The translations under genes were made by a program, and so were the position numbers. Shown piece by piece: positions 1-59,380 of a stretch of 64,000 nucleotides of DNA; the first letter of the stretch is position 1, and every line of letters starts with the position of its first letter. Origin of the DNA: Squalus acanthias (taxonomy: Eukaryota); contig CM059431.1 in NCBI GenBank assembly GCA_030390025.1, positions 113,462,001-113,526,000 on the forward strand, given 5' to 3'. The notes beneath the pieces were generated by a model. The model did not search any database. It was not told where the DNA came from and saw nothing but the letters and a program-made list of their open reading frames with translations.

Positions 1-1305
1 GTGTAAGCAAGGTGCCTCAGGGTTTGGAAACACATTAAACTATTTACACTTTAATTTTGTAATTGCATCTTGGCTGAATTTAAAGCTGTTAAGGGTTCAA
101 AAATATTGTATAATTAGGAGTTCTAATTTTATGGCAGTCCGACAGACATGAGGGAATCAGCTTTAAGAAATTCGAAAAGTCCTTTGATTCTGTACATTTA
201 ATTTTTTTTTACATAGATACATAGATACATAGAAGATAGGAGCAGGAGTAGGCCATCCGGCCCTTCGAGCCTGCTCCGCCATTTAATGAGATCATGGCTG
301 ATCCTCCAATTCAGTATCCCGTCCCCGCCTTCTCTCCGTAACCCTTAACCCCTTTTGCCTGTAGAAATATATCTAATTCCCTCTTAAATATATTTAATGA
401 GCTGGCGTACACTGCCCTCTGTGGCAATGAGTTCCATAGGTTCACCACCCTCTGAGTGAAGAAATTCCCCCTCATTTCTGTCCTAAATGGTTTAGCCCTT
501 ATCCTTAAATTATGTCCTCTAGTTCTGTTCTCACCCGCCAAGGGAAACATTCCTTCTGCATCTAGTCTGTCTAGACCTGTCAGAATTTTATACACTTCTA
601 TGAGGTCCCCTCTCAATCTTCTAAACTCCAGTGTGTACATCCCTAAACTACATAGTCTCTCCTCATAGGTCAATCCCGCCATTCCTGGTATCAGCCTGGT
701 GAATCGCCGCTGCACCCCCTCCATGGCAAGAACATCTTTCCTCAGATGAGGCGACCAAAACTGTACACAGTACTCGAGGTGTGGTCTCACCAGTGCCCTG
801 TACAGCTGCAGCAAGGTATCCCTGTTCCTGTATTCCAACCCTTTTGCTATGAAGGCCAGCATACCGTTTGCCTTCTTGACCGCCTGTTGCACCTGCATGC
901 TCGCCTTCAGTGACTGGTGTACAAGAACACCCAGGTCTCTCTGTACTTCCCCCTCTCCCAATTTATTGCCATTTAAATAATAATTTGCCCTCCCGTTCCT
1001 GCACCCAAGGTGGATAACTTCGCACTTGTCCACATTATAGTGCATCTGCCATTTATCCGCCCAATCACCCAGTCTGTCCAAATCGCTCTGGAGCTTCCTG
1101 GTCTCCTCCTCTGAGCCCACCCCCCCTCCTAGTTTAGTGTCGTCTGCAAATTTGGAAATGCTGCATCCGACTCCCTGATCCAGGTCATTAATGTAAATTG
1201 TGAACAGCTGGGGACCCAGGACAGATCCCTGCGGTACCCCACTTGTTACTGCCTGCCATTCAGAAAATGAGCCGTTTATTCCAACTCTCTGTTTTCTATC
1301 TGACA

Positions 1306-1856
1306 AAATTGAGAGGTCGCACAACACCAGGTTATAGTCCAACAGTTTTATTTGAAATCACAAGCTTTCGGAGCTATCACTCCTTCCTCAGGTGAAGTAA
1401 ATTGGATACAGAATCGCCAGAGCATATATAGATGGAAAAAAAAGCATGTGTACTTTACAATTGCAGACCAATAAATTAAATCATCCTGACTATCTGCCAA
1501 GGTGTGATAAAGTTAATTAAGTCAGCCAGGAAGGTACCACATCAAAAGACGTAGCAAGATACAACTGAGACAATGAGGTGTAGTCGCAGGGGTTCCAACG
1601 TGTCAAAAGCTGCCGTCTGTATGTAAAACGAAAAGCTTTAAAAAAAATTTACTTTTTTACTGGGAAAATTTTTACTTTTTTACTGGGAATCACATCTGTG
1701 AACAAGCTAACGATGACTCGAGTCCGGATCACGTCATGTATCGTGACATAAACCCAAGATCCCGATTGAGACCGTCTTCATGAGTTCGGAACTTGGCTAT
1801 CAGTTTCTGCTCGATGATTTTGCGTTGTCGTGTGTTTCTAAGGTTGCCTTGGAGAA
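1306..1856 (-). mobile_element. 5'-truncated Penelope-like element (family A): GIY-YIG C-terminus + terminal repeat
   Basis: 10-bp TSD CTATCTGACA (1296-1305, 1857-1866); minus strand encodes LQGNLRNTRQRKIIEQKLIAKFRTHEDGLNRDLGFMSRYM*, typical of a Penelope endonuclease end. Confidence 0.88.
1358..1395 (-). ncRNA. Minimal type I hammerhead ribozyme motif in Penelope terminal repeat
   Basis: Minus strand: TCAC-CTGAGGA-A-GGAGT gata GCTCC-GAAA-GCT-T-GTGA (core CUGANGA/GAAA, stem I TCAC/GTGA, palindromic AGCT stem III). Confidence 0.75.
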
Positions 1857-3813
1857 CTATCTGACAGCCAGTTCTCTATCCACGTCAATACTTTCCCCTT
1901 TATCCCATGAGCTTCAATTTTCCCTGCTAATCTTTTATGTGGGACCTTATCGAAGGCCTTTTGGAAGTCCAGGTACACCACATCTACTGGCTCTCCCCCA
2001 TCTATTTTACCAGTTACTCCCTCAAAAAATTCCAATAGATTAGTCAAGCACGATTTACCCTTTGTAAATCCATGTTGACTCTGTCCTATCCTGTCCCCAT
2101 TTGCTAAGTGCTCCGCTATTTCATCCTTAATGATGGACTCCAGCATTTTGCCCACAACTGATGTAAGGCTTACAGGTCTGTAATTACCTGCTTTTTCCCT
2201 ACCCCCCTTTTTGAATAGTGGGGTAACGTTAGCTACCCTCCAATCCATGGGCACTGTTCCCGAGTCTAATGAATTCTGAAAAATCATACTTAGTGCATCC
2301 GCTATCTCTAGGGCCACCTCCTTCAGCACCCTAGGATGCATGTTATCAGGCCCTGGGGATTTGTCCGCCTTCAATCCCTTTAGCTTCCTTAACACCATAT
2401 CCTTAGAGATATTGATTTGCGTCAGTTTCTCCTTTGCAAATGTTCCTATTTTTCCCGATATCCCAGGGAGGTTTTTTGTGTCTTCCTTCGTAAAGACTGA
2501 CCCAAAGTATGCATTTAGTTGGTCTGCCATTTCCTTATTTCCCGTTATATATTCCCCCGTATCTGACTGCAATGGGCCAACTTTGGTTTTCACCAGTCTT
2601 TTCCTCTTGATATACTTATAAAAGCTTTTGGAGTTAGTTTTTATATTTTCCGCCAGCTTGCTTTCGTAAGCTATTTTGCCCCTCTTGATTAAGCCCTTTG
2701 TCCTCCTTTGCTCTATCTTAAACTGTTCCCAATCTTCCGCTCTGGCGCTTTTTTTGGCTATTTTATACGCCCTATCTTTGGATTTTATGCTGTCCCTAAT
2801 TTCCCCTGTTATCCACGGTTGAGTCACCTTTTTAGATTTCCTTTTATGCCAGATTGGTATAAACAATTTTTGCAATTTTGTCATTCTATCTTTAAATGCT
2901 TGCCATTGTTTATCTACCTCCAGTCCTCCCAGGAACGTTGTCCAATCAGACCTACTCAGTTCCCGTCTAATGGCATCATAATTCCCCTTGTTTAAATTCA
3001 GGACCTGAGTATCTGAGTCAATTTCTTCGCTCTCCATTTCGAGTGAGAAATCGATCATGTTATGATCGCTCTGACCCAAGGGTCCCCGTACAACAAGATT
3101 ACTAATTAGTCCCTTCTCATTGCACAGTACCCAGTCCAATATAGCCTGTTCCCGAGTTGGTTCCTCGACATATTGATCCAGATAACCATCCCTTAAACAC
3201 TCAAGGAATTCCTCCTCCTCATTATTTTTACTGATTAGGCTATTCCAATCTATATGTAAGTTAAAGTCACCTATGATGACAGCTGTGCTCTTATTGCACG
3301 CTTCTCTAATTTCCCTCGTGATGCCCTCCCCAACCTCTATTTTACTATTTGGAGGCCTATATACCACTCCTATTAATGTTTTTCGCCCCTCGTTATTTCT
3401 TAGCTCCACCCATATAGATTCTGTATTAACTGAGTTAATATCCTTCCTTTCAATTGCATTTATCCCTTCTTTTACCAGCAATGCTACCCCTCCTCCCTTT
3501 CTTTTTTGTCGATCCTTCCTAAATACTGAATACCCCTGTATGTTAAGCTCCCAGCCCTGCTCACCCTGCAACCATGTTTCCGTAATCCCAATTAGATCAT
3601 AATTATTAACCTCTATTTCCACAGCTAATTCATCTACCTTGTTCCTGATGCTTCTCGCATTAAGGTATAAAACCCTCAGGCTTTTTTTATGCTCACATTT
3701 TTTATGAATTAGTTTGGCCCTTTGTTTTTTGTTCCTCACCCTTTTACCATTTATTTCTGTCTGCCTTTCACTTTCCTCTATTTCACTACATAGGTTTCTA
3801 GCCCCCTGCCATA

Positions 3814-4761
3814 CTAGTTTAAATGCTCCCGAACTGCTTTATCAAAAATTACCCCGAGAACATCAGTTCCATCTTTGCACAGGTGTAGACCGTCCCTTTT
3901 GTATAGGTCACACCTACCACAAAACTGGTTCCAATGCCTCAAAAATTTAAAACCCTCCCTCTTACACCAATGCTCAAGCCACGTATTTAGCCTAACTATC
4001 CTGTTCTCTGTACTCTTACTAGCACGTGGCACTGGTAGTAATCCAGAGATTACTACCTTCGAGGTCCTACTTTTTAGCTTGGCTCCTAACTCCCTAAATT
4101 CTACTTGTAGGACCTCTTCCCTTTTTTTAGCTACGTCGTTGGTACCAACATGTATCACGACAACTGGCTGTTCCCCCTCCCCCTCCAGAATGTTCTGCAC
4201 CCGCGCCGAGACATCCTTGACCCTTGCACCAGGGAGGCAACATACCATCCTGGAGTCTCGGTCGCGACCACAGAAACCCCTATCTATTCCCCTTACAATC
4301 GAATCCCCTATTACTATAGCCCTGCCACTCTTTTTCCCTCCCTTCTTTGCAACAGAGCCAGTCATGGTGCCATGAGCCTGGCTGCTGGTGCCTTCCCCCG
4401 ATGAGTCATCCCCCCCGACAACAGCACCTAAGGCGGTGAACCTGTTGCTAAGGGAGACAACCCCGGGGGATTTCTGCACTACCTTCCTGCCCTTGCTCTG
4501 CCTTTTGGTCACCCATGTACTATCTACGCTGGCCTTAACCTGCGGTGTGACCAACTCACTAAATGTGTTATCCACAACCCTCTCAGAATCGTGGATGCTC
4601 CAAAGTGAGTCCATCCGCAGCTCAAGGGCCGTCATGCGGTCCCACATGAGCTGCAGCTGGACACACTTCCCGCACACATGGTTGTCAGGGACACAGGAAG
4701 CGTCCCTGATTTCCCACATGTTACAGGAGGAGCATGACACAGGTCCGAGCTCTACTGCCAT
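3814..4761 (-). CDS. CR1 ORF1 protein: N-terminal Cys zinc finger/leucine zipper plus SGNH (GDSL-type) esterase domain
   Basis: Open 315-aa ORF with CSSC...CGKC, VIGDSIVR, PGA, HVGTND and DGLHL motifs typical of the CR1 ORF1 esterase. Confidence 0.92.
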   Translation of the reverse strand: MAVELGPVSCSSCNMWEIRDASCVPDNHVCGKCVQLQLMWDRMTALELRMDSLWSIHDSERVVDNTFSELVTPQVKASVDSTWVTKRQSKGRKVVQKSPGVVSLSNRFTALGAVVGGDDSSGEGTSSQAHGTMTGSVAKKGGKKSGRAIVIGDSIVRGIDRGFCGRDRDSRMVCCLPGARVKDVSARVQNILEGEGEQPVVVIHVGTNDVAKKREEVLQVEFRELGAKLKSRTSKVVISGLLPVPRASKSTENRIVRLNTWLEHWCKREGFKFLRHWNQFCGRCDLYKRDGLHLCKDGTDVLGVIFDKAVREHLN

Positions 4762-5214
4762 GACTTAACCCTTATATTACTTTTTAATTTTCTAGTTTTA
4801 GTTTATTTATTGACTTTTGTTTTCCCGAAGCTTACTTAGACCAATGTATACTGTACTCCTCTTATTCCTTCTTAAACTAACCAAATCCCACTAGTTTTAG
4901 TTTTACTTTCTAGGAAGGTTTGAGGAAAGTACTTACCAGTTAGTCTTACCTCCCTGGTCTTCCGCTGACTTCCTGGTCTTGTGTCCCCTTGGTCCGACGC
5001 CGACTTCCCGCTCCTCCCGGTTCCTGCCCTGCTGAAAAGAAACTGAGACCAAAAAATTTGTGACCTCTGTTTTTAGACTGCTAAAAGACTAGTAGGTTAG
5101 AGGAGGAGGGCGGGTGGGGGTTCCTACTCTGTAGGAACTCGGGTTTAAGCCACCACCCTCCTTAAATGCTGTTCACCTGGGTGCTTCCCAGCTGGTCCGC
5201 TTCCGGTCTCGTCT

Positions 5215-5826
5215 CTCCCGACACTGGCCTCTGCAAAAAAAGCCCGCGAAAGTGAGTTTAAATACTCACTGTGCTGCTGCTCTCTCCGCTCCCGACACTG
5301 GCCTCTGCAAAAAAAGCCCGCGAAAGTGAGTTTAAATACTCACTGTGCTGCTGCTCTCTCCGCTCCCGACACTGGCCTCTGCAAAAAAAGCCCGCGAAAG
5401 TGAGTTTAAATACTCACTGTGCTGCTGCTCTCTCCGCTCCCGACACTGGCCTCTGCAAAAAAAGCCCGCGAAAGTGAGTTTAAATACTCACTGTGCTGCT
5501 GCTCTCTCCGCTCCCGACACTGACCTCTGCAAAAAAAGCCCGCGAAAGTGAGTTTAAATACTCACTGTGCTGCTGCTCTCTCCGCTCCCGACACTGGCCT
5601 CTGCAAAAAAAGCCCGCGAAAGTGAGTTTAAATACTCACTGTGCTGCTGCTCTCTCCGCTCCCGACACTGGCCTCTGCAAAAAAAGCCCGCGAAAGTGAG
5701 TTTAAATACTCACTGTGCTGCTGCTCTCTCCGCTCCCGACACTGGCCTCTGCAAAAAAAGCCCGCGAAAGTGAGTTTAAATACTCACTGTGCTGCTGCTC
5801 TCTCCGCTCCCGACACTGACCTCTGC
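5215..5826 (-). repeat. 74-bp tandem array (8 full units + 20 bp) forming the 5' end of the CR1
   Basis: Units start at 5215, 5289, 5363, 5437, 5511, 5585, 5659, 5733, 5807; nearly identical; each holds an AGTGAGT-ttaaat-ACTCACT inverted repeat. Confidence 0.97.
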
Positions 5827-8779
5827 CATTAGGAATGCACGTTTAATTCATTGGACATTACATAATAAGAAATGTGTGCAGTTTAATTATTGAGGCAAAT
5901 CTTCATCAAATATCTTTTTGTAAAGGAGAATTTATAATATAGGTGTGCTGCCAGAGGCAGTGCCCTGTTTCTCCCTCTATTGGCTGCCCTCCACAGTGGT
6001 AAAGGAGCAACGGAATTGTAGGCCCGTGAAAATATGGGTCTATGAATGTTCTGTTGGATTAAGGGAACTGATTTTTGTGAAGTGAACATGGGGAGATTTT
6101 CACTGCATTTGGACGTGGCCCCGATTTTAACTCCAGGTGGATTCCCCGCTCAGGCCTGAGTTAACAATGCAGTCGGATCTCAATGATGTTGTCATGCATA
6201 TGTAAAGAAGGACCCTGTTGGCTTCGGGCGTGTGTCCTTGCTGCCTGCTCAAGGGAGCAGGTTAAAATTGCAAATGTTGCGATCATGGCGACTTTGGGAC
6301 AGGTAAGAGCCAGGGCGATTTTAACTGCCCACCTGCCAGGATTCTGCTGAGCGAGGAGGGTTAAAATCAGTCACGGTCTCCACATTGCGCAGTGGAACCC
6401 AGCAACTCTACAGAGGCCATTCGCTCTCCTGAAACAGGCTCCCAGAAGAAGAACAAAAGTAAAAGAGCCTTTCTTTAAGATTTAAGCATGCCACCATTTG
6501 TCTTCTCAAGAAAGTTTTTTCCCTTTGTTTTCTGTCCTCATTCCTCTAAATTTTCTCTCAGCACTACTCATCTCACAACACAGGCATGTCTGGTGCTGGT
6601 AGCCCCCAAGCTACAATGCGTCCTTATACATAAGAAGCAGTTTCTCCTTCATAATGGACCTCACCCCTTCAGTCCATCTCTATCCAAGAACACAATACCT
6701 GGAGATTGCGGGAGATGTAGAAGCAAATCCTAGCAAGGAGTTACTATCCCAAGGTTACTTCCAAAACACTGCAATTTAACAATCCTTCCAGGAGCACTGG
6801 AACCGTATGAAATGCTTGTCTCTGCCATGTTAGTAGGACCATCCTAAGTTCTTTATAGTCTCTCTCTCCTACTATGTATTTTCAGGATCTCCTCTGGGCC
6901 TTCCCAGAACTACTCAGACACCAACTCCATAGAAGTAACAAAACACCTAGCACTCTGTTACAGAACTTACTCTACCTACTCATCAGCTTAGATACATCCA
7001 CCCTAGAATGATTAGAAGGACAGAAGGAAGGCAACAGAAATTGTGAGTCATTGAGTGTGGCGGACAGGAGCAGGAACAGATGGAGGAAGAGGAGCAGCGA
7101 CCTTCTCACCAGAGGTTGGGGCCATGTCCCTCCCCAGTTGTAGAGGGCAAATAACCAGATCTCATGGACTAGCTTTTAAGACAAGGGCCTAGAGATTCTG
7201 GGCACACAAAGGCTGCAGTCCCTGCGCCTGAATGGTGAGGTCCGAGATGCATCCAATATTGGTGGTCCCTTTAAGGACTGCCTATTATACCACATGTAGA
7301 CCTTGTTTTCTTGAGTGCAGGCGGCTGCCTAAGGGCAAACCAATCTTGTAGTGGGGCTCAAACAGGTGTTAGACCCTTTATTTGCAAATGCAAAAGGCCA
7401 AACGCCCGATTCAGTCATGGGCACTGCATGGCGATTTTTTTGGCCTTTACCAATATGGCGGGTAGTGCACTTCCAGCTCGTAATGAGTATGCGCTTCCTA
7501 CCAGCCGTACTGGAGGCTTAGGAGACAGTTTAGCACATGTAAAACAGGTGCTGCATGGCCAAGTTTCCAGGCTACTGAGGCTTTCTGAACTTGACAGTTT
7601 GTTGGGGGTCATTGGTGGAGCTGCCCAGAACTTTCTAACAAATAACAGCTGGTATGGTGGAGTCCAGCAGTTGCCTGAGTGGGGTGCACCTTACAGAACC
7701 TGCAGACATCCTTGGATAGAGTGTCAGTTCCAAGACCATCTGTAGCACAGCCACCTACCAGAGACACCACAATGCGGTACTATTGCCACATCACTAGGCA
7801 TGGTTACTGACGAGCTTGCCTAAACGAGACGTGAGATGGGATAGGGGATGGGGTTCTGTGATGTCAAACCATCAGGTCTTTGTACCTGCAGATTCGACAG
7901 CATGGTGGCACGGAGGATCCAAATAAAGTTGGGATGCATGTGATCATGGAAGATGATGTTCTCTCTAGGGATATCAGCACTTCCGTGCTGCTCCTCCGTC
8001 CTCCACCCAGCAGTCAGGAGGCAGACTAGGCCAGGCTATCCCTGTGGAGAGTTCACAGCCTGTAGTGGGTCCATCCGGGGTCCTTGTTCAAGAAGGTCGT
8101 GGGCTACCTCGTTTCCAGCTTCATGTGGCAGAGATGCAGCTTAGCCACTTCTCTCCAGTCTCCTATCAGTGGGAGTTCACTTAGAATGAACACTAGGATA
8201 TTGAGAGTTTTGAGACGTGAATCTACAACACCACCGTAGAAAAGTGGGTAAGAAGGAAGCATCGTAGTGACAGAGAGTAGACACACACACTCGCTGTTTA
8301 TTAATAAATCAATGTTGGAACCTGATCACTCTTCTATTTGAGCTTTTATACTCTAGATAAATTGGGGGAAAAGTGTGTACAATGAAGATTTAAGAAGAAG
8401 AGATTTGACTGTAAGGATTCTCTTTGTATTGATTATGCAATGGAGCTATTGTATGGATAGGTGGAATGAGAATTCCTCCTTTACCAGTGAAATAGGTAAC
8501 AGTGGCTCTGGAGAGGGCCGGTGAACATCTTCAGCAACTGTCAAAGGTTCTTCTGGTTGTCGCTCCTCTTCTGGTCCACATGAGCCATCTTGTAAAAAAG
8601 CGGAAGGGTGTGTGGGGAGTGTGGGTGGGGGGTGGGGGGGGGGTGCGTGGACACATAGTGCCAAACATGGCATCTGTCAGTGAGTAATTCTGCAACTATT
8701 TATGAAGTGTAAAATCTTTTTTTTAATGCAAAATGTCAAAAATAAAGACCTTTCATGACAAGACAGATTTTAAGACATT

Positions 8780-9735
8780 TTGGGCGAGAAATTGGTGTCT
8801 GCTGTGGAGAGACGGAGGGCGGTGCTCTACCCAGCAAGTGGCAGGAGGCCCTCACCGCAAGTCTTCCATGCCATGTGGCAGGAGGTTGCCCATCAGGTCT
8901 CGGGCAGCACTGTGGTCCCCAGGACCCACACACAGTGCAGGAAGAAATTTAACAACCTCACTCGGGTGGTCAGGGTGAGTCAATGCCTCAACAAGTGCTT
9001 CATACCACTGTCTGAACCACAGTCTGCACACACTGGCCAAAGCACCACACCCCCAGCACTCACCCACCAACAAGCTCTACCTACCAACACTCACACCCAC
9101 ATCTCACACCTTGCACACAATGACAGCTGTTCAACTGTGGCAGGCACATCACCAAAACACATCGCTCCACATTTACTCACACACTTTCATTTCTCTTGCA
9201 GGCCAAGGTGGCTCACAATAGGAGGGAGCAGCAGCACACAGGCGGGGGACAAGCCGACACCCAACCACTGTCTGCGCTGGAAAATAGAGTGCTGCAGATT
9301 ATTGGGCGCCAGGTGGTGGGTGCCATGGCCACCGGTGACGTTGACCTCCTTGAGGACAACAACGGGATGTTCATCCCGACTCCTTCTCACATCCCACTTA
9401 CCGCTCACGCAACAAGCCTTTCGCACTTTCCAGCTAATCATGCTGTATGCATGCATTTCTCCCTTCCTGCCCCCCTCCCCTCACCTTAACCCATCTCTTG
9501 TGCCTTTATGCTTTCAGATAATGAGCAAGCACCGGAGCAGCCTGTCCCTGAGGTCACCGTTAAGAGCGAGGCAGGAGAAGAGGAGGAGGAATAACACACT
9601 GCGTCACTGCATGTCTCACCCACAGGCACCAGCTCAGATACTGGCACTATGCGTTCTTTAGAAGCTAGTATAGCAGTGGGATCTGCACAGAGTGATGCAC
9701 CGGGAATGAGTGGGCTGCAGCAAGGCCAGGGGGAA
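8780..9735 (+). pseudogene. Harbinger Myb/SANT-like DNA-binding protein, spliced, 5'-truncated
   Basis: MWQEVAHQVS...RTHTQCRKKFNNL exon ends at GTGAGT donor (8975); TTGCAG acceptor (9201) then AKVAHNRRE...TGGG; further acceptor at 9517. Confidence 0.8.
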
Positions 9736-9855: not shown

Positions 9856-11170
9856 TTACTGGAACCACAGTCTGATGAGGCGGTCATGGACCACCCTTCC
9901 GGAAGGCCGATTGAGTGGCTGCCTCATCCCTCGCTCCTCCTCCTCGTCTTCCTCGTCCTCCTCATCATCCTCCTTCTCCTCCCCCTCCCTCTTCCTCCTC
10001 CTGAGGTCATGATGCGGAGATGCCGGTGTTGGACTGGGGTGGACAAAAATGAGAAGTCGCACAACACCAGGTTATAGTCCAACAGTTTTATTTAAAATTA
10101 CGAGCTTTCAGAGCTGCTGCCCCTTCGTCAGGTAAAGGTACCTCCTCCTGAGGTGGTCGCGCAATCCCTGCTGGCAAGGGCTGGGCCCTCATGATGGCCA
10201 GATTGTGGAGCAGACCACGACGAAATGGGACACCCGCTCTGGCGGGTACTGGAGAGCTCCTCCCGAGTGGTCAAGGCAGCGGAACCATTGCTTGAGCACC
10301 TCGATGGTCTGCTCAGTGATGTTCCTGGTGGCGGCATGGCTGTCATTATATGAGTGCTGTGCAGGAGTGTTGGGGTTGCAGAAGGGAGGCATGAGCCAGG
10401 TGGAGAGCGGATAGTCCTTATCTCCAATCAGCCAGAGCCAGTGGCTGGAAGAGTGCTGGAACACTGGTCTGGTGCAGGATGAAGGCATCGTGGCTGCTGC
10501 CAGGATAACAGGCATTCACATTGAGGATTCACTGTCTGTGGTCGCACATCAACTGCACATTAAGTGAGTGGTAGCCTTTGTGGTTACGGAAGTTCTCAGG
10601 ATTGTTATGCGGTGCCTGCAAAGTCACGTGGGTGCAGTCAATGGCGCCCTGCACCATGGGGAATCCCGCTAGCCTGGCAGAGCCACAAGCATGCTGGTCC
10701 TACTTCTCTCTGGTGATGGGGAAGGAAATGTAGTCCCTTCTCCTACTGTAGAGAGCCTCTGTGACCTCCCGGATGCAGCGATAGACGGCGAACTGCGAGA
10801 TGTTCGCTATATCTCCTGTTGCAGACTGGAAGGATCCACTGGCAAAGAAATTGAGGGCGATGGTGACCTTGATTGTCACTGAGAGAGCCGTAGTTGCTCT
10901 GATCTAAGGCTGGAGATCTGGTTGCAGGAGGTGGCAGGGTTCTGTGACCACCTCCTTGCTGAAGCGGAGCCTTCTAAGACACTGCTCCTGTCTTAATTGG
11001 AGGTGGGAGAATTGCTGTCAGAATACCCTCGGAGGGTAAGGCCTCCTGTTGAGAGCCCTGATGGCCCTCCTCCTCCCTCTGGCCACACGTTCCAGTCTTT
11101 CTCGCTGCCTGTGCTCCCTCCGCCGTAGATCCTGGCGGGTGAGGTTAACTGCCAGTACAGCCCCCACTAA
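9856..11170 (-). pseudogene. Harbinger (HARBI1-like) DDE transposase, frameshifted and interrupted
   Basis: Minus-strand GFPMVQGAIDCTHV, NHKGYHSLNVQLMCD, WLIGDKDYPL, TRNITEQTIEVLKQWFRCLD and an acidic tail. Confidence 0.88.
10008..10140 (-). mobile_element. Penelope family A terminal-repeat fragment with hammerhead motif (10098-10135)
   Basis: 14-bp TSD CCTCCTCCTGAGGT (9994-10007, 10141-10154); same sequence family as 1306-1400. Confidence 0.88.
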
Positions 11171-19509: not shown

Positions 19510-20090
19510 GATCTGGTTATACAAAGCCGTGGTTAGACCACATCTGGAGTACGGTGTATAATTTTGGGCACCGCATCTTAGAAAGGATGTACTGGCCTTG
19601 TAAGTAATGCAGCGCAGATTCACCAGAATGTTACCAGGGCTCCAAGGGTTAGATTATGAGGAGCGATTACATAAACTAAGCTTGTATTCCCTGGAATATA
19701 GAAGGTTAAGCGGTGATTTGACTGAGGTTTTTAGGATTTTGAAGGGAATTGATAGGGTAGATGGAGAGAAACCTTTTCCACTGATGGGGGAGTCTAGGAC
19801 AAGGGGGCATAACCTTAAAATTAGAGCCAGGCCATTCAGGAGAGAAGTTAGGAAACACCTCTTCACGCAAAGAAGTGTGGAACTCTCTCCCTGAAAAAGC
19901 AGTAGATGCTAGCTCAATTAATAATTTAAATTCTGAGATCGCTAGACCTTTGCTAGCAAAGGGTATTAAGGGATATGGAGCCAAGGCGGGTGGATGGAGT
20001 TAGGATACAGATTAGCCATGATCTCATTGAATGGTGCAATAGGCTCGAGGGGCTGTATGGCCTACTCCTGTAGTTATGTTCCTATGTCCC
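19510..20090 (+). mobile_element. CR1 3' fragment
   Basis: LYKAVVRPHLEY...QRRFTRMLPG...RTRGHNLKI with stops; CR1 3' UTR. Confidence 0.9.
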
Positions 20091-20477
20091 TATCTGAATT
20101 AGCTCCCAGGCTGGTTCAAAGTTGTGACCTCCAGTAAAAGATATGGTGCTCCTCCAGGACATAGGCGGCTCCTCGTTATCAGCAATAAGTCTGTGCTGGG
20201 GCAAGCAATTTGACGTTTCCTTCCCCTTTAGAGCTGTTGTTGCTTCCCTCCAACAACTCAGCCTCTCCCTTTCCTTTTACTCACTGGCACCCTCCTATAT
20301 GGCCAGCATTATGTCAAAAATCTCAAAAAACCATCAGAAACTGCTGGGGAACGGCTGCTAATTTTGCAGACAGTCACACACCCAGCAATTGTGACTTGTT
20401 AGTTCAACATGCATTTAACTAAATGTTTTCAAATTTGGGGAGCCATTCTGAAATCTTACTTTGCTCCCTAATAAAGG

Positions 20478-33229: not shown

Positions 33230-34140
33230 TGGCTGCAGCTGCCAGGACTGCCACTGACCCCTCCTCAAAATACCTACACTCGACCCCTCTGTCCTTGGAA
33301 ACTACCACCCCATGTCCAATTTCCCTTTCTTCTCCAAAGTGCTTATGTTGTTGCCTCCCAAATCCATGCCCATCTTTCCTGTGATTTCATGTTTGAATCT
33401 TTCCAATCCAGTTTCCACCCCTGCCACAGCACTGAAATGATCCGAATCAAAGTCACAAATGGAAATCCTCTGTGTCTGTGACCATGATACAGTATCCCTC
33501 CTCATCCTTCTTGACCTCTCTGCAGCCTTTGACAGAATCGACCACCCCATCATCCTCCAACTCCTCTCCTTTGCCGCGACTTGAATCTATTTTTATCCAT
33601 CCAGGCCTAGCCGTATCATCTTCTGTGAATAAATGTGAGAAGTCGCACAACACCAGGTTATAGTCCAACAGCTTTATTTGAAAGCACAAGATTTCGGAGC
33701 GCTGCTGACGAAGGAGCAGCGCTCCGAAATCTTGTGCTTTCAAATAAAGCTGTTGGACTATAACCTGGTGTTGTGCGACTTCTCACATTTGTCCACCCCA
33801 GTCCAACACCGGCATCTCCACATCACATCTTCAGTTATGGCTTCTCTTGTCCTCCCACATCATTACATCTGGAGTCTCCCAAGGATCTATTCTGGACCCC
33901 ACCCTCTTCCTGATCTACATGCTGCCTCTCCACCTCTCTACCTCTCTTTCCTCCTTTAAGAAGCTCCTTAAAACCTACCCCTCATCTGCCCTAATAGCTC
34001 CTTATGTGGCACGGTGTCAAATTTTGTTTTATAACGCTCCTATGAAGCGCCTTGGGACCCTTTACTATGTTAAAGGTGCTATATAAATACATGTTGTTGT
34101 TTTTGTTGTTGTTGCCCCTCGGTGACATCATCCAAAGACA
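33230..34140 (+). mobile_element. Decayed L2 RT fragments hosting a Penelope palindrome
   Basis: NYHPMSNFPF, HST, LDLSAAFD, SGVSQGSILDP remnants and a (GTT)n tail. Confidence 0.75.
33631..33825 (+). mobile_element. Penelope family A terminal repeat with inverted copy (76-bp palindrome)
   Basis: 33631-33706 is the exact reverse complement of 33715-33790. Confidence 0.9.
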
Positions 34141-36115
34141 TAGGATTGAATTTTGCCGGCGCTCAGAGGGCGGGTTTGGAGGCGGGTCCCCTGTCAAAAT
34201 CGAAATGATTGACAGCGGGTTGGGAACCCACTCCGAACCCGCCTCCATGTAAGTTTCCAAAATGTCGGGTCTGCGATTTCAGAACAGACCCGACACCAAG
34301 CGGCGGGGGTGGCATTTAAGATAGTCAAATGCTTGTCAAACGTTTGTTAACTACTATTTTTGATGCGGAGATGCCGGTGTTGGACTGGGGTGGACAAAAG
34401 TGAGAAGTCGCACAACACCAGGTTATAGTCCAACAGCTTTATTTGAAATCACAAGCTTTCGGAGCGCTGCTCCTTCGTCAGGTGAAGTCCTGACGAAGGA
34501 GCAGCGCTCCGAAAGCTTGTGATTTCAAATAAAGCTGTTGGACTATAACCTGGTGTTGTGCGACAACTACTATTTTGCCAGCCTTTTTCTATTTTCCCAC
34601 TTTTTTAACGAGGTTCCCGACATTCGGAGATCCCGTCAGGTAAGTAGGTCGGGTTCTCTATGTCTCCCCATTGCTGTGAATAGATGACAGCTGCAAAAAG
34701 TGGTATGAAAGATACCATTTCACAGCTGGTCACTTTCCAATGTCAGGAGCTTGAGCCTTCAGGACTTGGAAGACACTTTTGAGCTGTATGCAGTTTGAAA
34801 GTGTTTGGAGTAAACTCTCCATCCACTGTCACCTCCTTGGAGCAAGCTCTCTCACCATTGACAGATCGCTTCTGTCATCTCAACTGCAGCTGCCATCTAT
34901 TCCGGCAACATCGGTGCCCCTGAAAAAATCTCACCTTGGTCCTCTGAATCCCTCCACGATCGGCCCCAACACCAACACCACCAGGCACAGCAACATCACC
35001 AACAACATAACCAACCTTCTCCGCAATCACCTGATGCTGCACAGGACACAGGGCATCAGCATGGCCAGATTTACTTCACTTGACGGTGTACACCCTGGCT
35101 GCCACATGATGCGCCAGATTGACACCACCCCACAGCAGCACAATAAAGCATCCCTACAATGTCCAAGCCATTCCTTTCACACTCATCACAATTGTGGAGG
35201 GGAGTGGGGGGGGAAGTTATGTCTCAACATTCACTGGAACTCATGAAGACACTTCCAAAGGTGAGCACAGATCCTTTCAATAAGGTAAAGTGTTGAAAAT
35301 ATAGATTTCCATGCTTGACAACACATTACCAGAAAATTTACATAAACATTGCATAAAACATCCAAGTGCCTACCCTTGTGTGTTGTTAGTTGGTATGATT
35401 GCACTAGGATGAGGGGGAGTGTGAGGGCTGGCTAGTGAGATGGGGAAGTGATAATGTAGACAGAGAGGAATGGGTGGAGGTGCAAAGTAAGTTGATGTGA
35501 GTAAGGATGGGCAGGGGTAGGGTAGGGAAGGCAGAGTGATGGGGATGTGATGTGTGGCACAGCAGGATGAGGTTGGGTGTGGATTTGCAGTAACATTTCA
35601 TGATCCACTGAGATCATTGAAAGGTTTGCGCCACTGCAGCCAGGTCCTCCTGACCACATCCCTGCTTGTGTCCTCCTGTGCAATGTGCAACAAGCTGCGT
35701 TGGTCTCCTGGGGAGGTCTTCTCCGCCCTTGGAAGGGAAGAGAACCTCACTGCGTGCTGTGACTCTCTCCATAAGCATATGGAGGGAGTCATGCGGGAGC
35801 CTGGGTGCAGCCGTGCACCTTTGTACAGTGCTTGTCAGTGTTTGCAGCACCTCAATGCTGTAGAACACTGACAGCACAACTGTCAAAATGAATGTGGCCA
35901 TGGTCCCTTTAAGGAAACTGGCTGATGACGCGTCATCAAATGACGTCATCAGACCCACTTCCTTCTAATTGGCCGGCAAACGCGCAGGGCGGGCTTAACA
36001 AGCCCAATCAAGGGAAAATCCTTTTCACAGAGCGGCTGGAGCCGGGAGCGGGACCGGGACCCGCCAATGAACTCTCCCACTGCGATCCCGCCTCCGATGG
36101 CGAAATCGCGGCCAT
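34141..36115 (-). mobile_element. Non-autonomous Harbinger retaining a decayed Myb/SANT exon (about 35595-35850)
   Basis: Minus-strand APRLPHDSLHMLMERVTARSEVLFP...HIAQEDTSRDVVRRTWLQWRKPFNDLS; GC-rich termini. Confidence 0.7.
34361..34564 (-). mobile_element. Penelope family A terminal repeat with inverted copy; intact hammerhead motif at 34449-34485
   Basis: 12-bp TSD AACTACTATTTT (34349-34360, 34565-34576); arms 34407-34482 and 34489-34564 are exact reverse complements. Confidence 0.92.
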
Positions 36116-41378: not shown

Positions 41379-41932
41379 GAGTACTGTGTGCAGTTCTGGT
41401 CACCACATTACAGGAAAGATGTGATTGCACTAGGGAGGGTACAGACGAGATTTACAAGGATGTTGCCGGGAGTAGAGAATCTTAGCTATGAGGAAAGACT
41501 GGATAGGCTGGCTTTGTTTTCCTTGGAACAGAGGAGGCTGAGGGGAGACCTTATTGAGGTGTATAAAATTATGAGGGGCCTAGATAAAGTGGATAGAAAG
41601 GACCTATTTCCCTTAGCAGAGGGGTCAAAAACCAGGGGGCACAGATTTAAAGTAATTGGGGGAAGGTTTAGAGGGGATTTGAGGGGAAATTTCTTCACCC
41701 AGAGGGTTGTGGGGGTCTGGAACTCACTGCCTGAAAGGGTGGTAGAGGCAGAAACCTTAATCACATTTAAAAAGTACTTGGATGTGCACTTGGGATGCTG
41801 TAACCTGCAGGGCTATGGATCAAGAGCTGGGAAGTGGGATTAGGCTGGATAGCTCTTTGTTGGCCGGCGCGGACATGTTGGGCCGAAATGGCCTCCTTCC
41901 GTGCTGTAACTTTCTATGATTCTATGATTCTA
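41379..41932 (+). mobile_element. CR1 3' fragment inserted in the 3' LTR
   Basis: 151-aa ORF2 C-terminus, (ATTCTATG)n tail, 6-bp TSD TGTTTA; absent from the other LTR. Confidence 0.93.
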
Positions 41933-49605: not shown

Positions 49606-52205
49606 TAGGACTCTGTGTGGTGGTATAATGCATTGGAGTCCCAATGTGCCATTCTGTGGTGTATCAGCCATGGCTCAGTGGGTACCACTCTTGCCTCTGA
49701 GTCAGAAGGTTGAGGGTTCATAGTCCCACTCTAGAGACTTGAACACAAAATCTAGGCTGACACTCCCAGTGCTGTACTTGAGGGAGTGCTGCACTATCGG
49801 AGGTACCGTCTTTTGGACGAGACGTTAAATCGAGGCTCCGTCTGTCATCTCAGGTGTACGTAAAAGATCCCATGGCACTAACTCCAAAAAGAGCAGGGCA
49901 GTTCTCCCTAGCCAATATTTATCCCTCAACCAACATCACTAAAAATAGATTCTCTGGTCATTATCACATTTCTGTTTGTGCGATCTTGCTGCGTGCAATT
50001 TAGCTGCCGCGTTTCCCAGATTACAATAATGAGTACACTTCAAAAGAGAGGGCTTTAAACTAAATAGTGGGGGGGAGGATCCAGGTGAGCGGGAATTTAA
50101 AAAGTGAATGATAAATGAGAAAGCAATAGAGCAGGACAGAGATGGGGGAAATAATAACCAGTGTGTGACAGGAAGGTACAGAATGTTTAAAAATAAGAGT
50201 GCAAGAGAAAATGGGGCCAAAACAAGGACAAATGGTAAAAAGACAAAGTTAAAAGCTTTATATCTGAATGCACGCAGCATTCGTAACAAGATAGATGAGT
50301 TGACTGCACAAATAGATACAAATGGGTATGATCTGATCGCCATTACAGAGACGTGGTTGCAAGGTGATCAGGGCTGGGAACTGAATATTCCAGGTTATTT
50401 GACAATTCGGAAGGATAGACAGAAAGGAAAGGGAGGTGGGGTAGCTTTGTTGGTAAAGGATGGGATCAGTGCAGTGGTGAGAAGTGATATTGGCTCAGAA
50501 GATCAAGATGTAGAATCGGTTTGGGTGGAGATAAAAATTAATAAAGGGAAAAAGTCTCTGGTGGGCGTAGTCTACAGGCCCCCAAACAGTAGCAATACTA
50601 TTGGACAGAGTATAAATCAACAAATAATAGAGGCCTGTAAAAAAGGTACGGTAATAATCATGGGTGATTTTAATCTCCATATTGATTGGAGAAATCAAAT
50701 TGGCCATGGTAGCCTTGAGGAGGAGTTCATAGAGTGCATCAGGGATGGTTTCTTAGAACAGTATGTAATGGAACTGACCAGGGAGCAGGCTATCTTGGAT
50801 CTGGTACTGTGTAATGAGACAGAATTAATAAATGATCTCATAGTAAAGGATCCTCTAGGAAAGAGTGATCATAGCATGGTTGAATTTCAAATTCAGTTGG
50901 AGGGTGAGAAAGTTGTATCTCAAACCAGTGTCCTGATCTTAAACAAAGGCAATTACAATGGCATGAGGGCAGAACTGGCTAAAGTGGACTGGAAAAATAA
51001 ATTAAAGGGTAAGACAGTTGAAATGCAGTGGCGGACATTTAAGGAGATATTTCATAACTCCCAACAAAAATATATTCCAGTGAGAAAGAAAGATTTTAAG
51101 AGAAGGGAGCACCATCCGTGGCTAACTAAGGAAGTAAAGGATGGTATCAAATTGAAAATGAAGGCATACAATGTTGCCAAGATTGGTGGGAGACCAGAGG
51201 ATTGGGAAATTTAAAAAAACCAGCAAAGGATGACTAAAAAAATAATAACGAGAGAGAAGATGAATTATGAGAGTAATCTGGCAAGAAACATTAAAACAGA
51301 TAGTAAGAGCTTCTACAGGTATATAAAAAGGAAGAGGGTAGCTAAAATAAACGTTGGTCCCTTAGAGGATGAGACTGGGGAATTAATAATGGGGAACGGG
51401 GAAATGGCAGAGACTCTGAACAAATATTTTGTATCTGTCTTCACAGTAGAAGACACTAACACATCCCAATAATGGATAATCAAGGGGCCACAGGGAGCGG
51501 GGAACTAAAGACAATCACTATCACTAGGGAAATAGTACTTGGTAAAATAATGGGACTAAAAGATGACAAGTCCCCTGGACCAGATGGCCTGCATCCCAGG
51601 GTCTTAAAAGAAGTGGCTGCAGAGATAGTGGATGCATTGGTTGCAATATACCAAAATTCCCTGGACTCTGGAGAGGTCCCAGCAGATTGGAAAACCGCAA
51701 ATATAACACCCCTATTTAAGGAAGGAGGGAGACAGAAAGCAGGAAACTATTGACCAGTTAGCCTAACACTTGTCATTGGGAAAATGCTGGAGTCCTTCAT
51801 TAAGGAAGCAGTAGCAGGGCATTTGGAAAATCATAATGCAGTCAAGCAGAGTCAGCATGGTTTTATGAAAGGGAAATTATGTTTAACAAATTTGCTGGAG
51901 TTCTTTGAGGAGGTAACGAGCAGGGTGGACAAATGTGAATCAGTGGATGTGGTGTATTTGGATTTCCAGAAGGCATTCGATAAGGTGCCACATAAAAGGT
52001 TACTGCATAAGATAAGAGCTCACGGAATTGGGGGTAATATATTAGCATTGATAGAGAATTGGCTAACTAACAGAAAGCAGAGAGTCGGGATAAATGGGTC
52101 ATTTTCCGGTTGGCAAAAGGTAACTAGTGGGGTGCCACAGGGATCGGTGCTCGGGCCTCAACTATTTACAATCTACATTAATGACATGGATGAAGGGACC
52201 GAGTG

Positions 52206-54669: not shown

Positions 54670-56299
54670 GTGTAATGTAGCCAAGTTTGCGGATGATACA
54701 AAGATGGGTGGGAAAGCAAGTTGTGCAGAGGACTCAAAGAACCTGCAAAGGGATATAGACAGGCTAAGTGAGTGGGCAAACATTTGGCAGATGGAGTATA
54801 ATGTGGGAAAGTGAGAGGTTATACACTTTGGCAGGAAATATAAAAAAGCAAATTATTATTTAAATGGAGAGAGATTACAAAATGCTACAGTTCAGAGGGA
54901 CCTGGGGGTCCTTGTGCATGAAACACAAAAAGTTAGCATGAAGGTACAGCAAGTAATCAAAAAGGCAAATGGAATGTTGGCCTTTATTTCAAAGGGGTTG
55001 GAGTATAAAAGCAGGGAAGTCCTGCTACAACTGTACAGGGTATTGGTGAGACCACACCTCGAGTACCGCGCACAGTTTTGGTCTCCTTATTTAAGGAAGG
55101 ATATACTTGCATTGGAGGCAGTTCAGAGATGATTCACTAGGTTAATTCCAGAGATGAGGGGGGTTGACTTATGAGGAAAGGTTGAGCAGGTTGGGCCTAT
55201 ACTCATTGGAATTTAGTAGAATGAGAGGTGATCTTATTGAAACATATAAGATACTGAGGGGGCTCGACAGGGTAGATGCAGAGAGGATCTTTCCCCTCGT
55301 GGGGGAATCTAGAATGCGGGGGCACAGTTTTAGAATAAAGGGTCGCCCTTTTAAAACTGGGATGAGGAGGAATTTCTTCTCTCAGAGGGTCGTATATCTG
55401 TGGAATTCTCTGCCCCAGAGAGCTGTGGAGGCTGGGTCATTAAATACATTTAAGGTGGAGATAGACAGATTTTTGCAAGATAAGGGAGTGAAGGGTTATG
55501 GGGAGTGGGCGGGCAAGTGGCTTTGAGCCCTAGATCAGCCATGATCTTATTGAATGGCGGAGCAGGCTCGAGGGGCCAAGTGGCCTATTCCTGCTCCTAT
55601 TTCTTATGTTCTTATGTTCTTAATTGGCTGTAAAGCGTTTTACATGTCCTAAGGTCGTGAAAGACGCTATATAAATGCAAGTTCTTTCTTTCATTATGGA
55701 TGTAGGTTAGCACATAAAATCTTCCATGGTAAGTTAATGATCTCAGCTGTGCCATCATGGGAAGGTGCCAAGTTCAGGCATTTAGCCACTAGGAAGGAAA
55801 TAAAATTAAGAGGAGAATCACTCTACTCTAAGTATGAATTCAATTCAAGCATTCAAATGGGAACTAGATGAATTCCTGATTCATCAAAGATTGAAAGAAT
55901 ATAAGTTTGGAATAGTGAATGATTTTAAAATAAAGATATGTTGAGCCCCCAATCAGGAACTGGATTCATAAGTCTTCAGTCTTGAGTCTCATCCTTCCAG
56001 AATACCAACACTGAAGTCTTTCCTTTCCAGCTTTTAAGGGTAGATTTAATGAATTCAAATTCCTGGCACAGAGGGTCATCTGTCAGGAGCGCATATCGGA
56101 ATTCAGATGAGGAAATCAGTGGACCCCGCAGGATTTTCCAACCATTTAAAGTGAAAGGGGGTGAATTTCCGCAAGGGGTTCACCCATTCATCTGCCATGA
56201 TTGCAGCGAAAGAGCTGTGGAAAGCCCAGAAAAATGGCATAGATGTTCATGCCATTTTCCCAGGTTTCCACACCTCTTCTGCCAAAATTGCAACATTCA

Positions 56300-57699: not shown

Positions 57700-58765
57700 A
57701 TAAGAACATAAGAACATAAGAAATAGGAGCAGGAATAGGCCACTTGGCCCCTCGAGCCTGCTCCGCCATTCAATAAGATCATGGCTGATCTAGGGCTCAA
57801 AGCCACTTCCCAGCCCGCTCCCCATAACCCTTCATTCCCTTATCTTGCAAAAATTTGTCTATCTCCACCTTAAACGTATTTAATGAACCAGCCTCCACAG
57901 CTCTCTAGGGCAGAGAATTCCACAAATTTACGACCCTCTGAGAGAAGAAGTTCCTCCTCATCTCAGTTCTAAAAGGGCGACCCTTTATTCTGAGACTGTG
58001 CCCCCGAGTTCTAGATTTCCCCATGAGGGGAAACATCTTCTCTGCATCTACCCTGTCAAGCCCCCTCAGTATCTTATATGTTTCAATAAGATCACCTCTC
58101 ATTCTTCTAAATTCCAATGAGTATAGGCCCAGCCTGCTCAAACTTTCCTCATAAGTCAAACCCCTCATCTCTGAAATTAACCTAGTGAATCGTCTCTGAA
58201 CTGCCTCCAATGCAAGTAAGGAGACCAAAACTGTACGCTGTACTCAAGGTGTGGTCTCACCAATACCTTGTACAGTTGTAGTAGTACTTCCCTGCTTTTA
58301 TACTCTAACCCCCTTGAAATAAAGGCCAACATTCCATTTGCCTTTTTCATTACTTGCTGTACCTGCATGATAACTTTTTGTGTTTCTTGCACAAGGACTC
58401 CCAGGTCCCTCTGAACTGTAGCATTTTGTAATCTCTCTCCATTTAAATAATAGTTAGCTTTTTTATTTTTCCTGCCAAAGTGTATAACCTCGCACTTTCC
58501 CACATTATACTCCATCTGCCAAATTTTTGCCCACTCACCTAGCCTGTCTATATCCCTTTGCAGATTCTTTGAGTCCTCTGCACAACTTGCTTTCCCACCC
58601 ATCTTTGTATCATCCGCAAACTTGGCTACATTACACTCGGTCCCTTCATCCAAGTCATTAATGTAGATTGTAAATAGTTGAGACCCCAGTACCGATCCTT
58701 GTGGCACCCCACTAGTTACCATTTACCAACCTGAAAATGACCCATTTATCCCGACTCTCTGTTTT
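57700..58765 (-). mobile_element. CR1 3' fragment (RT core to tail)
   Basis: GVPQGSVLG...FADDTK ORF pieces; (TTCTTATG)n tail at 57700. Confidence 0.93.
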
Positions 58766-59380
58766 ATAAAAATACATTAATTAAAAATAGAGTAAATCAA
58801 TGCTGAAATATAAGTTAAATCTAGTGACTATTTTAGGGAGTAACTTACTGAATTAGAAAAGTTAGCAAGGTAGGAACTAATAAAATGGAGTAAATGAAAT
58901 AATGTGATTGGAAAATTCCTCAATGCTTTGTGTGAATAGTTTAAAGATGGCGGGTTTTGAAAGTGATGTATGTGAGTGGCAAGTACATACTGATAATTGG
59001 GAGAGAGAAGCCACACTCACATAGCAGTCATGCTGGAGCATTTATCTTCACTTCAGCAAATGCATCAGTTTGAATCTGAAAGATGAGCTGGAGATAAAAC
59101 AGAAGCGTGCCCAGAGAAGGCTGAATGTATCCTGACTACCATGCAAGTAACAAGATTGATAGCGCTGATTCTGGAGCTGTTGAGAGGTGCAATTTTTGGG
59201 GGAATATATGAAATATGTGGGAGTGACAAGTGGTAGTGAAGGAAATGGCAGTGGCAGTGGTTGGTAGGGAGGTCAATTGCATTGACTAAGGCTGAAGTGG
59301 GCTCATGATAGCAATCGGGGTGAGGAATAGACGCAGATTAAAAGTCGGGAGTGGGGCAGAACGAAGCACTGAAGGCTGAA

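What the first reader, a model, noticed from the sequence alone, without database searches (positions are those of the whole stretch)
5215..5826. CR1 5' array of 74-bp monomers, each with a TATA box 30 nt upstream of the next monomer's start
Seen: on the element's sense strand every unit contains TATTTAAA, and counting from its first T the 31st base is the G of GCAGAGG. That is the same register at which the element's 5' end (5826) lies. Established: TATA boxes sit about 30 nt upstream of Pol II starts, and mouse L1 uses tandem monomer promoters. Inference: each monomer fires the next one, so the element spends at least one monomer per retrotransposition and must regenerate them by tandem expansion. 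The TATA sits in the loop of an AGTGAGT/ACTCACT inverted repeat.
Basis: partly seen in the sequence, partly recalled or inferred. Interest (0 to 1): 0.72.

Follow-up and report, generated by a model that had tools for sequence, protein, structure and literature searches.

The report
Jumping gene with eight TATA cassettes
A CR1-type jumping gene, likely from a shark or ray, begins with eight near-identical 74-base units that each hold a TATA box 30 bases ahead of the next unit, so each unit likely switches on the one behind it and every new copy would lose its front unit and have to regrow the stack, a logic known from mouse LINE-1 but built here from what looks like an ordinary TATA promoter.

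Summary
Observation confirmed. A full-length CR1-type LINE (minus strand, 5826 to 211, esterase ORF1, ORF2 broken by a later insertion) starts with 8 full 74-bp units plus a 20-bp partial one. In 8 of 8 units the G of GCAGAGG is base 31 from the first T of TATTTAAA, and the element's 5' end lies on that G, with no TATA in the flank. Contigs of two other studies show the same 74-bp tandem; variant units keep the TATA core and a pyrimidine/purine step at base 31-32. One further contig breaks off at the same G. Promoter activity, the start site and the clustering of 5' ends are not shown. New here: the array is an exact doubling of a four-unit block that begins at the 5' end, as a template jump at the RNA's end would give, and each unit carries a splice-donor motif predicted to be hidden in the hairpin; no spliced form was seen. 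Loss and regrowth of promoter monomers is known from mouse L1; I found no TATA-based CR1 version in print. This scan has noted the same layout before on other DNA (11 notes, at least 7 genomes). New variant of a known kind; interest 0.5.

The parts
5215..5826 (-). 5' array: 8 full 74-bp units and a 20-bp partial unit; CpG-rich (observed/expected 0.82 against 0.42 for the window)
5531..5826 (-). first four-unit block (position-8 pattern T,C,C,C); repeated exactly at 5235-5530
5775..5782 (-). TATTTAAA of unit 1 (repeated every 74 bp down to 5257-5264); first T is 30 nt before the next unit's G
5769..5788 (-). 7-bp inverted repeat around the TATA; its 5' arm holds the splice-donor motif GTGAGT (unit position 40), predicted paired in RNA
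5749..5759 (-). T7 run and GCAG at each unit junction: predicted start site (G, or the A two bases on); also reads as a splice acceptor
5826..5827 (-). 5' junction of the element; the extra G at 5827 is either flank, part of a 4-nt duplication (AATG, also at 195-198) or a non-templated cap G
   Evidence: not resolved
4762..5214 (-). unique 5' UTR (tether); its first letters match the middle of another unit type seen in other copies; donor motifs at 4949, 4936, 4835, acceptor motifs at 5032/5029; no ATG before 4761
3814..4761 (-). ORF1, 315 aa, SGNH/GDSL esterase domain; closest named relatives in sawshark (69%), rays, skates and sharks
1857..3838 (-). ORF2, first part: AP endonuclease and start of reverse transcriptase
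1306..1856 (-). 551-bp insertion in the reverse transcriptase, flanked by a 10-bp duplication (1857-1866 and 1296-1305); this copy cannot move on its own
311..1305 (-). ORF2, second part: rest of reverse transcriptase to the stop codon
211..310 (-). 3' UTR ending in about 2.6 copies of an 8-bp tail repeat, followed by A9

Best explanation
The array is the 5' end of a CR1-type LINE and likely its RNA polymerase II promoter: the TATTTAAA of unit n is predicted to start transcription at the first bases of unit n+1, so the front unit would never be copied, each daughter would be at least one unit shorter, and the stack must be regrown, here likely by a doubling of a four-unit block. Shown: the array, the fixed 30-nt spacing, the 5' end in that register, no TATA in the flank, the same tandem in other copies, the conserved core, the block doubling. 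Inferred: TBP binding, the start site (G at base 31 or A at base 33), loss per round. For regrowth I favour (about 45%) a jump of reverse transcriptase from the RNA's 5' end back onto the tether-side partial unit, because the doubled block begins exactly at the 5' end; unequal exchange or slippage in an ancestor that had one more unit in front gives the same pattern (about 40%). The donor motif 40 nt after each start may help initiation or protect the RNA from early cleavage rather than splice (recalled U1 biology; untested).
For: Spacing of 30 nt in 8 of 8 units and 5' end on the same G; optimum TATA positions -31 and -30 in mouse CAGE data (PMC1779604); TATTTAAA gave over 75% of wild-type transcription with purified yeast factors (PMC2396422); no TATA-like word at -26 to -39 in the flank; TATA plus initiator spacing in 2 of 5000 shuffles and 55 of 3000 window 74-mers; one contig in each of X4 and X5 (two studies, two organism codes) goes back 74 at 5288 to 5215, so other copies have at least two units; of the 40 difference rows shown (15 hidden) 8 fall in the unit, all at 5270-5278, none at 5235-5269 (donor, TATA, hairpin, T run); in three variant unit types a pyrimidine/purine step has its purine at base 31, 31 and 32 from the TATA while the AG of CAG moves between bases 32 and 36 (my count on rows of tables 5c and 7); X5 record 15 fits 5236-5308 and runs on for 30 unlike letters exactly at the G. 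Array CpG ratio 0.82. Mouse L1 precedent for clustered 5' ends, matching CAGE peaks and loss per round.
Against: No transcription data: X21 gave 0 reads on the stretch out of 10,085,944 read, and X4 and X5 are contigs whose RNA origin is a guess. Only two 5' ends bear on the register; the second has its upstream letters hidden and could be another insertion into the unit or a variant unit. 106 of 124 loose-end rows and 1351 of 1375 pieces were not shown. Conservation of the core is partly built in, since contigs are laid only where they fit. Donor and acceptor motifs together are as rare by chance (8 of 5000; 1 of 3000) as the TATA-initiator pair, so the same letters have a second reading. Unit-length variants of the T run exist (+1 in 5 contigs of X7, +4 in 1 low-depth contig of X5). 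The TATA function data are from yeast.
Confidence: 0.62

Rival explanations
1. Each unit is a self-contained internal promoter (initiator plus downstream sites, the palindrome binding an activator), as in mouse or human L1; starts fall at the unit's G without needing the TATA of the unit in front, so the first unit also fires and loss is frequent but not obligatory.
For: Internal, TATA-less promoters are the rule for LINEs (PMC2377424 passages); the array is CpG-rich; a 5' end at the G fits this too; TATTTAAA has one mismatch to consensus.
Against: It leaves the exact 30-nt spacing and its retention in variant units unexplained; the middle of the unit, which would hold downstream sites, is the part that varies among unit types.
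Confidence: 0.17
2. The unit is mainly a splicing cassette: donor GTGAGT, a branch-like CTCAC and a T7-GCAG acceptor would let host transcripts splice into the element, or remove an intron from a unit's donor to the acceptors at 5032/5029.
For: Donor at position 40 and acceptor at each junction in 8 of 8 units; both together in 8 of 5000 shuffles and 1 of 3000 window 74-mers; variant units keep both; mouse L1 monomers carry cryptic splice sites (PMC9022269 passage).
Against: Donor to acceptor within one junction is 39 nt, below the usual vertebrate intron minimum (recalled); the donor is predicted paired (unpaired probability 0.00-0.06 in 3 of 3 folds); the only joint listed is the 74-bp step back, and contigs run unspliced over 4684-5203 (X5), 4690-5043 and 5022-5256 (X4); the 5' end includes the GCAG that splicing would remove. 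Contigs drop rare forms, so absence is not shown.
Confidence: 0.09
3. The array is a neutral minisatellite that grew in the 5' UTR; the 5' end is an ordinary truncation that happens to lie 30 nt behind an AT-rich word.
For: Most LINE copies are truncated (PMC4245944 passages: 2 of 33 ZfL2-1 inserts full length); TATA-like 8-mers occur in 463 of 3000 window 74-mers; only one 5' end is certain.
Against: Chance of the register is 4/74; the core is kept across unit types while the middle changes; the array is shared by copies in other samples; CpG is retained.
Confidence: 0.08
4. Each unit is a polymerase III gene (upstream TATA at -30, start at G, stop at the T7 run) that makes a 70-nt RNA; the LINE mRNA starts elsewhere.
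For: The unit begins with G and ends in T7; upstream TATA at about -30 also marks U6-type genes (recalled).
Against: No Rfam family matches the array (2 chance-level hits, both in the tether); the unit in this phase folds no better than shuffles (z -0.94 and -1.54); variant units shorten or break the T run; such a promoter could not copy the 5.6-kb element.
Confidence: 0.04

Closest known systems
Mouse L1Md monomer promoters (A, Gf, Tf) with tether (PMC6454616 passages and Discussion; PMC10620060 passages; PMC9022269 passages; PMC5381506 passages)
   Same: Tandem units at the 5' end ahead of a unique tether; CpG-rich; 5' ends at a preferred place in the unit; loss per round measured (0.6-1.8 units); regrowth proposed by unequal crossing-over or during cDNA second-strand priming, mechanism open; unit types differ by place in the array; cryptic splice sites present.
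   Different: L1 clade and about 200-bp units against CR1 and 74 bp; mouse starts lie near YY1 or AP-1 sites over 30-40 nt and the word TATA occurs 0 times in the three monomer papers, whereas here one TATA sits at a fixed 30 nt in the unit in front, which would make loss strict.
HeT-A and Penelope tandem promoters (PMC2377424 passages; HeT-A seen only as cited there)
   Same: Sequence upstream of the start, belonging to a copy in front, helps drive the copy behind; regrowth depends on forming tandems.
   Different: There the upstream part is the 3' UTR of a whole neighbouring element and the promoter is described as TATA-less; here it is a dedicated 74-bp unit.
Vertebrate canonical CR1 (PMC13343379 section 15 and passages; chicken CR1 5' UTRs, PMC2734521 passages)
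   Same: Esterase ORF1, APE-RT ORF2, no poly-A-type tail; repeats near the 5' UTR have been remarked in the group (1-5 subunits of 100-500 bp in some ORF1-less elements; a 32-bp direct repeat in turtle and pufferfish elements).
   Different: Those repeats were not read as promoters (promoter and TATA occur 0 times in PMC13343379), are reported for ORF1-less elements, and chicken CR1 promoters are described by E boxes or Oct-1/AP-1 sites, with TATA occurring 0 times.

Membership tests
Canonical CR1 LINE | ORF2 with AP endonuclease and reverse transcriptase | tested here: met
   Pfam Exo_endo_phos and RVT_1 above cut-off; interrupted by an insertion in this copy
Canonical CR1 LINE | Esterase-type ORF1 | tested here: met
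   Lipase_GDSL_2, E 1.2e-10; per PMC13343379 chondrichthyan L2 lack ORF1 while CR1 have the esterase
Canonical CR1 LINE | 3' tail of short tandem repeats | tested here: met
   about 2.6 copies of an 8-bp unit ending at 211; an A9 follows, tail or flank unknown
Canonical CR1 LINE | Reverse transcriptase groups with CR1 rather than L2 in a tree | not tested
   no reference set of clade-labelled RT sequences was fetched
L1Md-type monomer promoter | Tandem units ahead of a unique tether, shared by family members | tested here: met
   74-bp step-back contigs in X4 and X5
L1Md-type monomer promoter | 5' ends of copies cluster at one place in the unit | tested here: inconclusive
   this copy plus X5 record 15 at the same G; two further breaks at 5313 and 5315 are ambiguous
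L1Md-type monomer promoter | Promoter activity that rises with unit number; starts mapped in the unit | not testable with these tools
   needs CAGE, RACE or reporters; X21 gave 0 reads
L1Md-type monomer promoter | Host element of the L1 clade | tested here: not met
   esterase ORF1 and microsatellite tail: works alike, is not a member
TATA-initiator Pol II core promoter | TATA-like 8-mer with first T at -29 to -32 from a pyrimidine/purine start | tested here: met
   -30 from T/G and -32 from C/A in 8 of 8 units; window from PMC1779604; the start is predicted, not mapped
TATA-initiator Pol II core promoter | TBP binding and TATA-dependent initiation | not testable with these tools
   only the yeast result for the same 8-mer
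Spliceosomal intron cassette | Spliced junction at the donor and acceptor motifs | tested here: inconclusive
   no such joint among contigs of X4, X5, X7; contigs show presence, not absence
Pol III small RNA gene | Match to a known structured RNA family | tested here: not met
   no Rfam match in the array at E up to 5

The most novel reading that the evidence does not exclude
Cartilaginous-fish CR1 elements have given up the internal promoter: they use a strictly external TATA cassette (TATA, initiator, masked U1 site in 74 bp), lose exactly the front unit or more at every round, and rebuild the stack during reverse transcription, when the enzyme runs off the RNA's 5' end and re-primes on an inner unit. 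The T,C,C,C,T,C,C,C pattern would be a direct fossil of one such doubling, and unit number would count retrotransposition rounds.
Probability: 0.25. Interest if true: 0.75.

Novelty: new variant of a known kind. Interest (0 to 1): 0.5.

Why it matters
How a LINE keeps a promoter that lies partly outside its own transcript is an old question; for mouse L1 the regrowth mechanism is stated to be unclear (PMC6454616). A short unit with one sharp, predictable start site, in a family that covers a large part of shark and ray genomes (CR1-group elements 22-34%, PMC13343379), would make both loss and regrowth countable from assemblies alone: the register of 5' ends, the unit numbers, and whether the front unit's variant recurs inside the array. 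It would also show that monomer promoters arose independently in CR1 and from a different core-promoter type.

Tried and rejected
No host assembly was available for a census of 5' ends. No second array in the window: 8 exact core matches, all in this array, plus 1 two-mismatch hit; the other CR1 pieces lack ORF1 and 5' UTR. A pattern scan of metagenome contigs gave 19 loci, all matching only 18-22 letters, so chance. ORF1 found no relative in genome contigs (300 stretches tested) or viral contigs (19). The raw RNA run X21 held no read of the stretch: no test. Depth was not used as copy number. No target-site duplication of 5 nt or more touches both ends. No decayed units were found in the tether by blastn-short (best 7 letters). 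A look-up of earlier notes by sequence found nothing. RNA structure of the unit is unremarkable in its own phase; the rotated phase gave z -2.46, one of three folds tried.

Full report
1. Observation. The array is real: 5215-5826, period 74, 8.3 copies, 99% matches, no indels. Read on the minus strand it is 8 full units and a 20-bp partial unit; the only difference among them is position 8, T in units 1 and 5 and C elsewhere. In 8 of 8 units the next unit's G is base 31 from the first T of TATTTAAA. Likeness to the unit ends at 5826, and the flank offers no TATA-like word at -26 to -39. TATTTAAA covers the 6-nt loop and closing pair of a 7-bp inverted repeat. A TATA-like word with an initiator match 28-34 nt later occurs in 2 of 5000 dinucleotide shuffles of the unit and in 55 of 3000 random 74-mers of the window; the consensus words are recalled and were picked after seeing the sequence, and the window background is the fairer control. 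A random 5' end would fall in the -29 to -32 window with probability 4/74.

2. The element. Behind the array lie a 453-bp unique leader without ATG, ORF1 (315 aa, SGNH esterase), ORF2 (AP endonuclease, reverse transcriptase) and a tail of 8-bp repeats ending at 211. ORF1's closest named relatives are from sawshark (69%), rays, skates and sharks, so the host is likely a cartilaginous fish. Esterase ORF1 points to canonical CR1, since chondrichthyan L2 are reported to lack ORF1 (PMC13343379); no RT tree was made. A 551-bp insertion with a 10-bp duplication breaks the reverse transcriptase, so this copy is dead on its own. No duplication of 5 nt or more flanks the element; the G at 5827 may be flank, part of a 4-nt duplication, or a copied cap (unresolved).

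3. Other copies. No assembly was held. Twenty of 23 listed runs hold the ORF1-leader stretch or part of it, 18 with half its words or more, from 10 studies. Four were laid on 4600-5320. The raw RNA run gave 0 reads (no test). X4 and X5, from two studies and guessed to be RNA, each have one contig that steps back 74 bases from 5288 to 5215: other copies have at least two units. Of 40 difference rows shown (15 hidden), 8 lie in the unit, all at 5270-5278; none lies at 5235-5269, the donor-TATA-hairpin-T-run core. Loose ends at 5269 (X5, X7), 5272 (X4, X7), 5238 (X5), 5207 (X7) and two rows of table 5c show other unit types that keep this core and change the middle; two are 72 bp long by my count. 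Counting from the TATA, three of these variants have a pyrimidine/purine step with the purine at base 31, 31 and 32, while the G of the following CAG lies at 36, 32 and 35 (34 here). That is what a spacing-bound start site predicts, but the variants are related, such steps are common, and the laying is anchored on the core. T-run variants of +1 (5 contigs, X7) and +4 (1 contig at depth 3.3, X5) exist. Six of the 24 listed pieces touch the unit. X5 record 15 (4 differences in 73 letters) stops fitting exactly at the G at 5308 and runs on for 30 letters: compatible with a second 5' end in register, but its letters were not shown, and earlier notes of this scan report another LINE landing in such units (e1-9147077, not checked). 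Two more pieces break off at 5313 and 5315, in the T run, too near the end of the stretch to judge. 106 of 124 loose-end rows were hidden. Clustering of 5' ends therefore remains open. In X4 the tether-side partial unit differs at 5224-5226 in the way of one of the other unit types, and the tether's first letters match that type's middle: an older unit type seems to survive at the tether while newer units stand in front.

4. A second reading of the same letters. Each unit has GTGAGT at position 40, a branch-like CTCAC and a T7-GCAG junction; donor and acceptor together occur in 8 of 5000 shuffles and 1 of 3000 window 74-mers, as rare as the promoter pair. Against splicing as the main role: 39 nt between them in one junction; the donor is predicted fully paired with the hairpin's other arm (unpaired probability 0.00-0.06 in 3 of 3 folds); the only joint is the 74-bp step back, and contigs cross the leader unspliced; the 5' end keeps the GCAG.

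5. Mechanism. Most likely (0.62) each TATTTAAA directs polymerase II to the start of the next unit. The spacing equals the optimum in mouse CAGE data (-31, -30; PMC1779604 abstract), and this very 8-mer gave over 75% of wild-type signal with purified yeast factors (PMC2396422 passages). The longest RNA would then lack the front unit, and daughters would be shorter by one or more units. Regrowth has left a trace: the array is T,C,C,C twice plus the partial unit, an exact doubling of 296 bp that begins at the 5' end. A switch just inside unit 1 onto the 20-bp partial unit, copying towards the 5' end, gives this pattern. Reverse transcriptase has a reason to switch there, because its template ends; a DNA-level slip in this copy would have to fall within 7 letters. 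But an unequal exchange in an ancestor with one more unit in front, followed by loss of that unit, gives the same result, and a start on a T unit has a 1 in 4 chance in a longer periodic array, so the pattern favours the jump only mildly. An assembly error in unit number cannot be excluded. Shown: anatomy, register, sharing, core conservation, doubling. Inferred: everything about transcription, loss and the route of regrowth.

6. What is known. Mouse L1 has the same logic: tandem CpG-rich monomers plus tether (PMC5381506 passages), 5' ends and CAGE peaks at preferred places, regrowth by second-strand priming or unequal crossing-over with the mechanism unclear (PMC6454616 passages and Discussion), daughters 0.6-1.8 monomers shorter in 5 pairs (PMC10620060 passages), cryptic splice sites in monomers (PMC9022269 passages). 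TATA occurs 0 times in those three monomer papers. HeT-A and Penelope use sequence of an upstream copy (PMC2377424 passages). For CR1, the 2026 survey mentions repeats of 100-500 bp near the 5' UTR of some ORF1-less elements without a promoter reading (PMC13343379 section 15 and passages), and chicken CR1 promoters are described by E boxes and AP-1-type sites (PMC2734521 passages). Searches (listings only) showed no paper on TATA-bearing monomer arrays in CR1 or in sharks; the library lacks most subscription papers and Repbase reports, and no supplements were read, so a brief earlier mention is quite possible. PMC4245944 was seen as passages.

7. Earlier notes of this scan. A word look-up gave 11 findings in at least 7 genomes with the same layout (8 shown), and this genome has others, among them a 118-unit array of 74-bp units. 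They are unchecked leads and were not counted as evidence.

8. Verdict. Observation confirmed; interpretation plausible and partly supported; new variant of a known kind. Interest 0.5; 0.75 if strict loss with regrowth during reverse transcription holds (probability 0.25).

Noticed in passing
window 1306-1856 (minus): 551-bp insertion with a 10-bp duplication inside the reverse transcriptase; its last 70-93 bp recur at 5 other places in the window, some as inverted pairs (33631-33790, 34397-34564, 10046-10137). Resembles the end of a Penelope-like repeat (recalled, not tested).
   Followed up: partly
window 8774-9661 (+) and 10189-10515 (-): Myb/SANT-like ORF and a DDE_Tnp_4 fragment facing each other: a decayed PIF/Harbinger-type DNA transposon upstream of the LINE (family label recalled from the domain pair).
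   Followed up: partly
window 4835-4949 and 5029-5032 (minus): Three more splice-donor motifs and a strong acceptor motif in the unique leader; the donor at 4949 lies 40 nt before an acceptor-like AG at 4910, the same too-short spacing as in the units. No spliced contig seen.
   Followed up: partly
window 4600-5214: This copy differs from the bulk of laid contigs at 7 listed places in 615 letters, yet its 8 units carry no single-unit mutation; either the differences are subfamily or species differences and the copy is very young, or the array was homogenised late.
   Followed up: no
window 50189-52191 (+), 54728-55617, 57706-58768, 60968-62285, 19530-20093, 41379-41739: Older 5'-truncated CR1 pieces at 66-72% DNA identity; none has ORF1 or an array.
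   Followed up: yes
protein P0009: A 58%-identical CR1 ORF1 relative is filed as a Pseudomonas aeruginosa hydrolase on a 4.2-kb contig, likely host contamination; others are annotated as isoforms of host genes (RPS24, TMEM204, ABHD14A) in rays.
   Followed up: no
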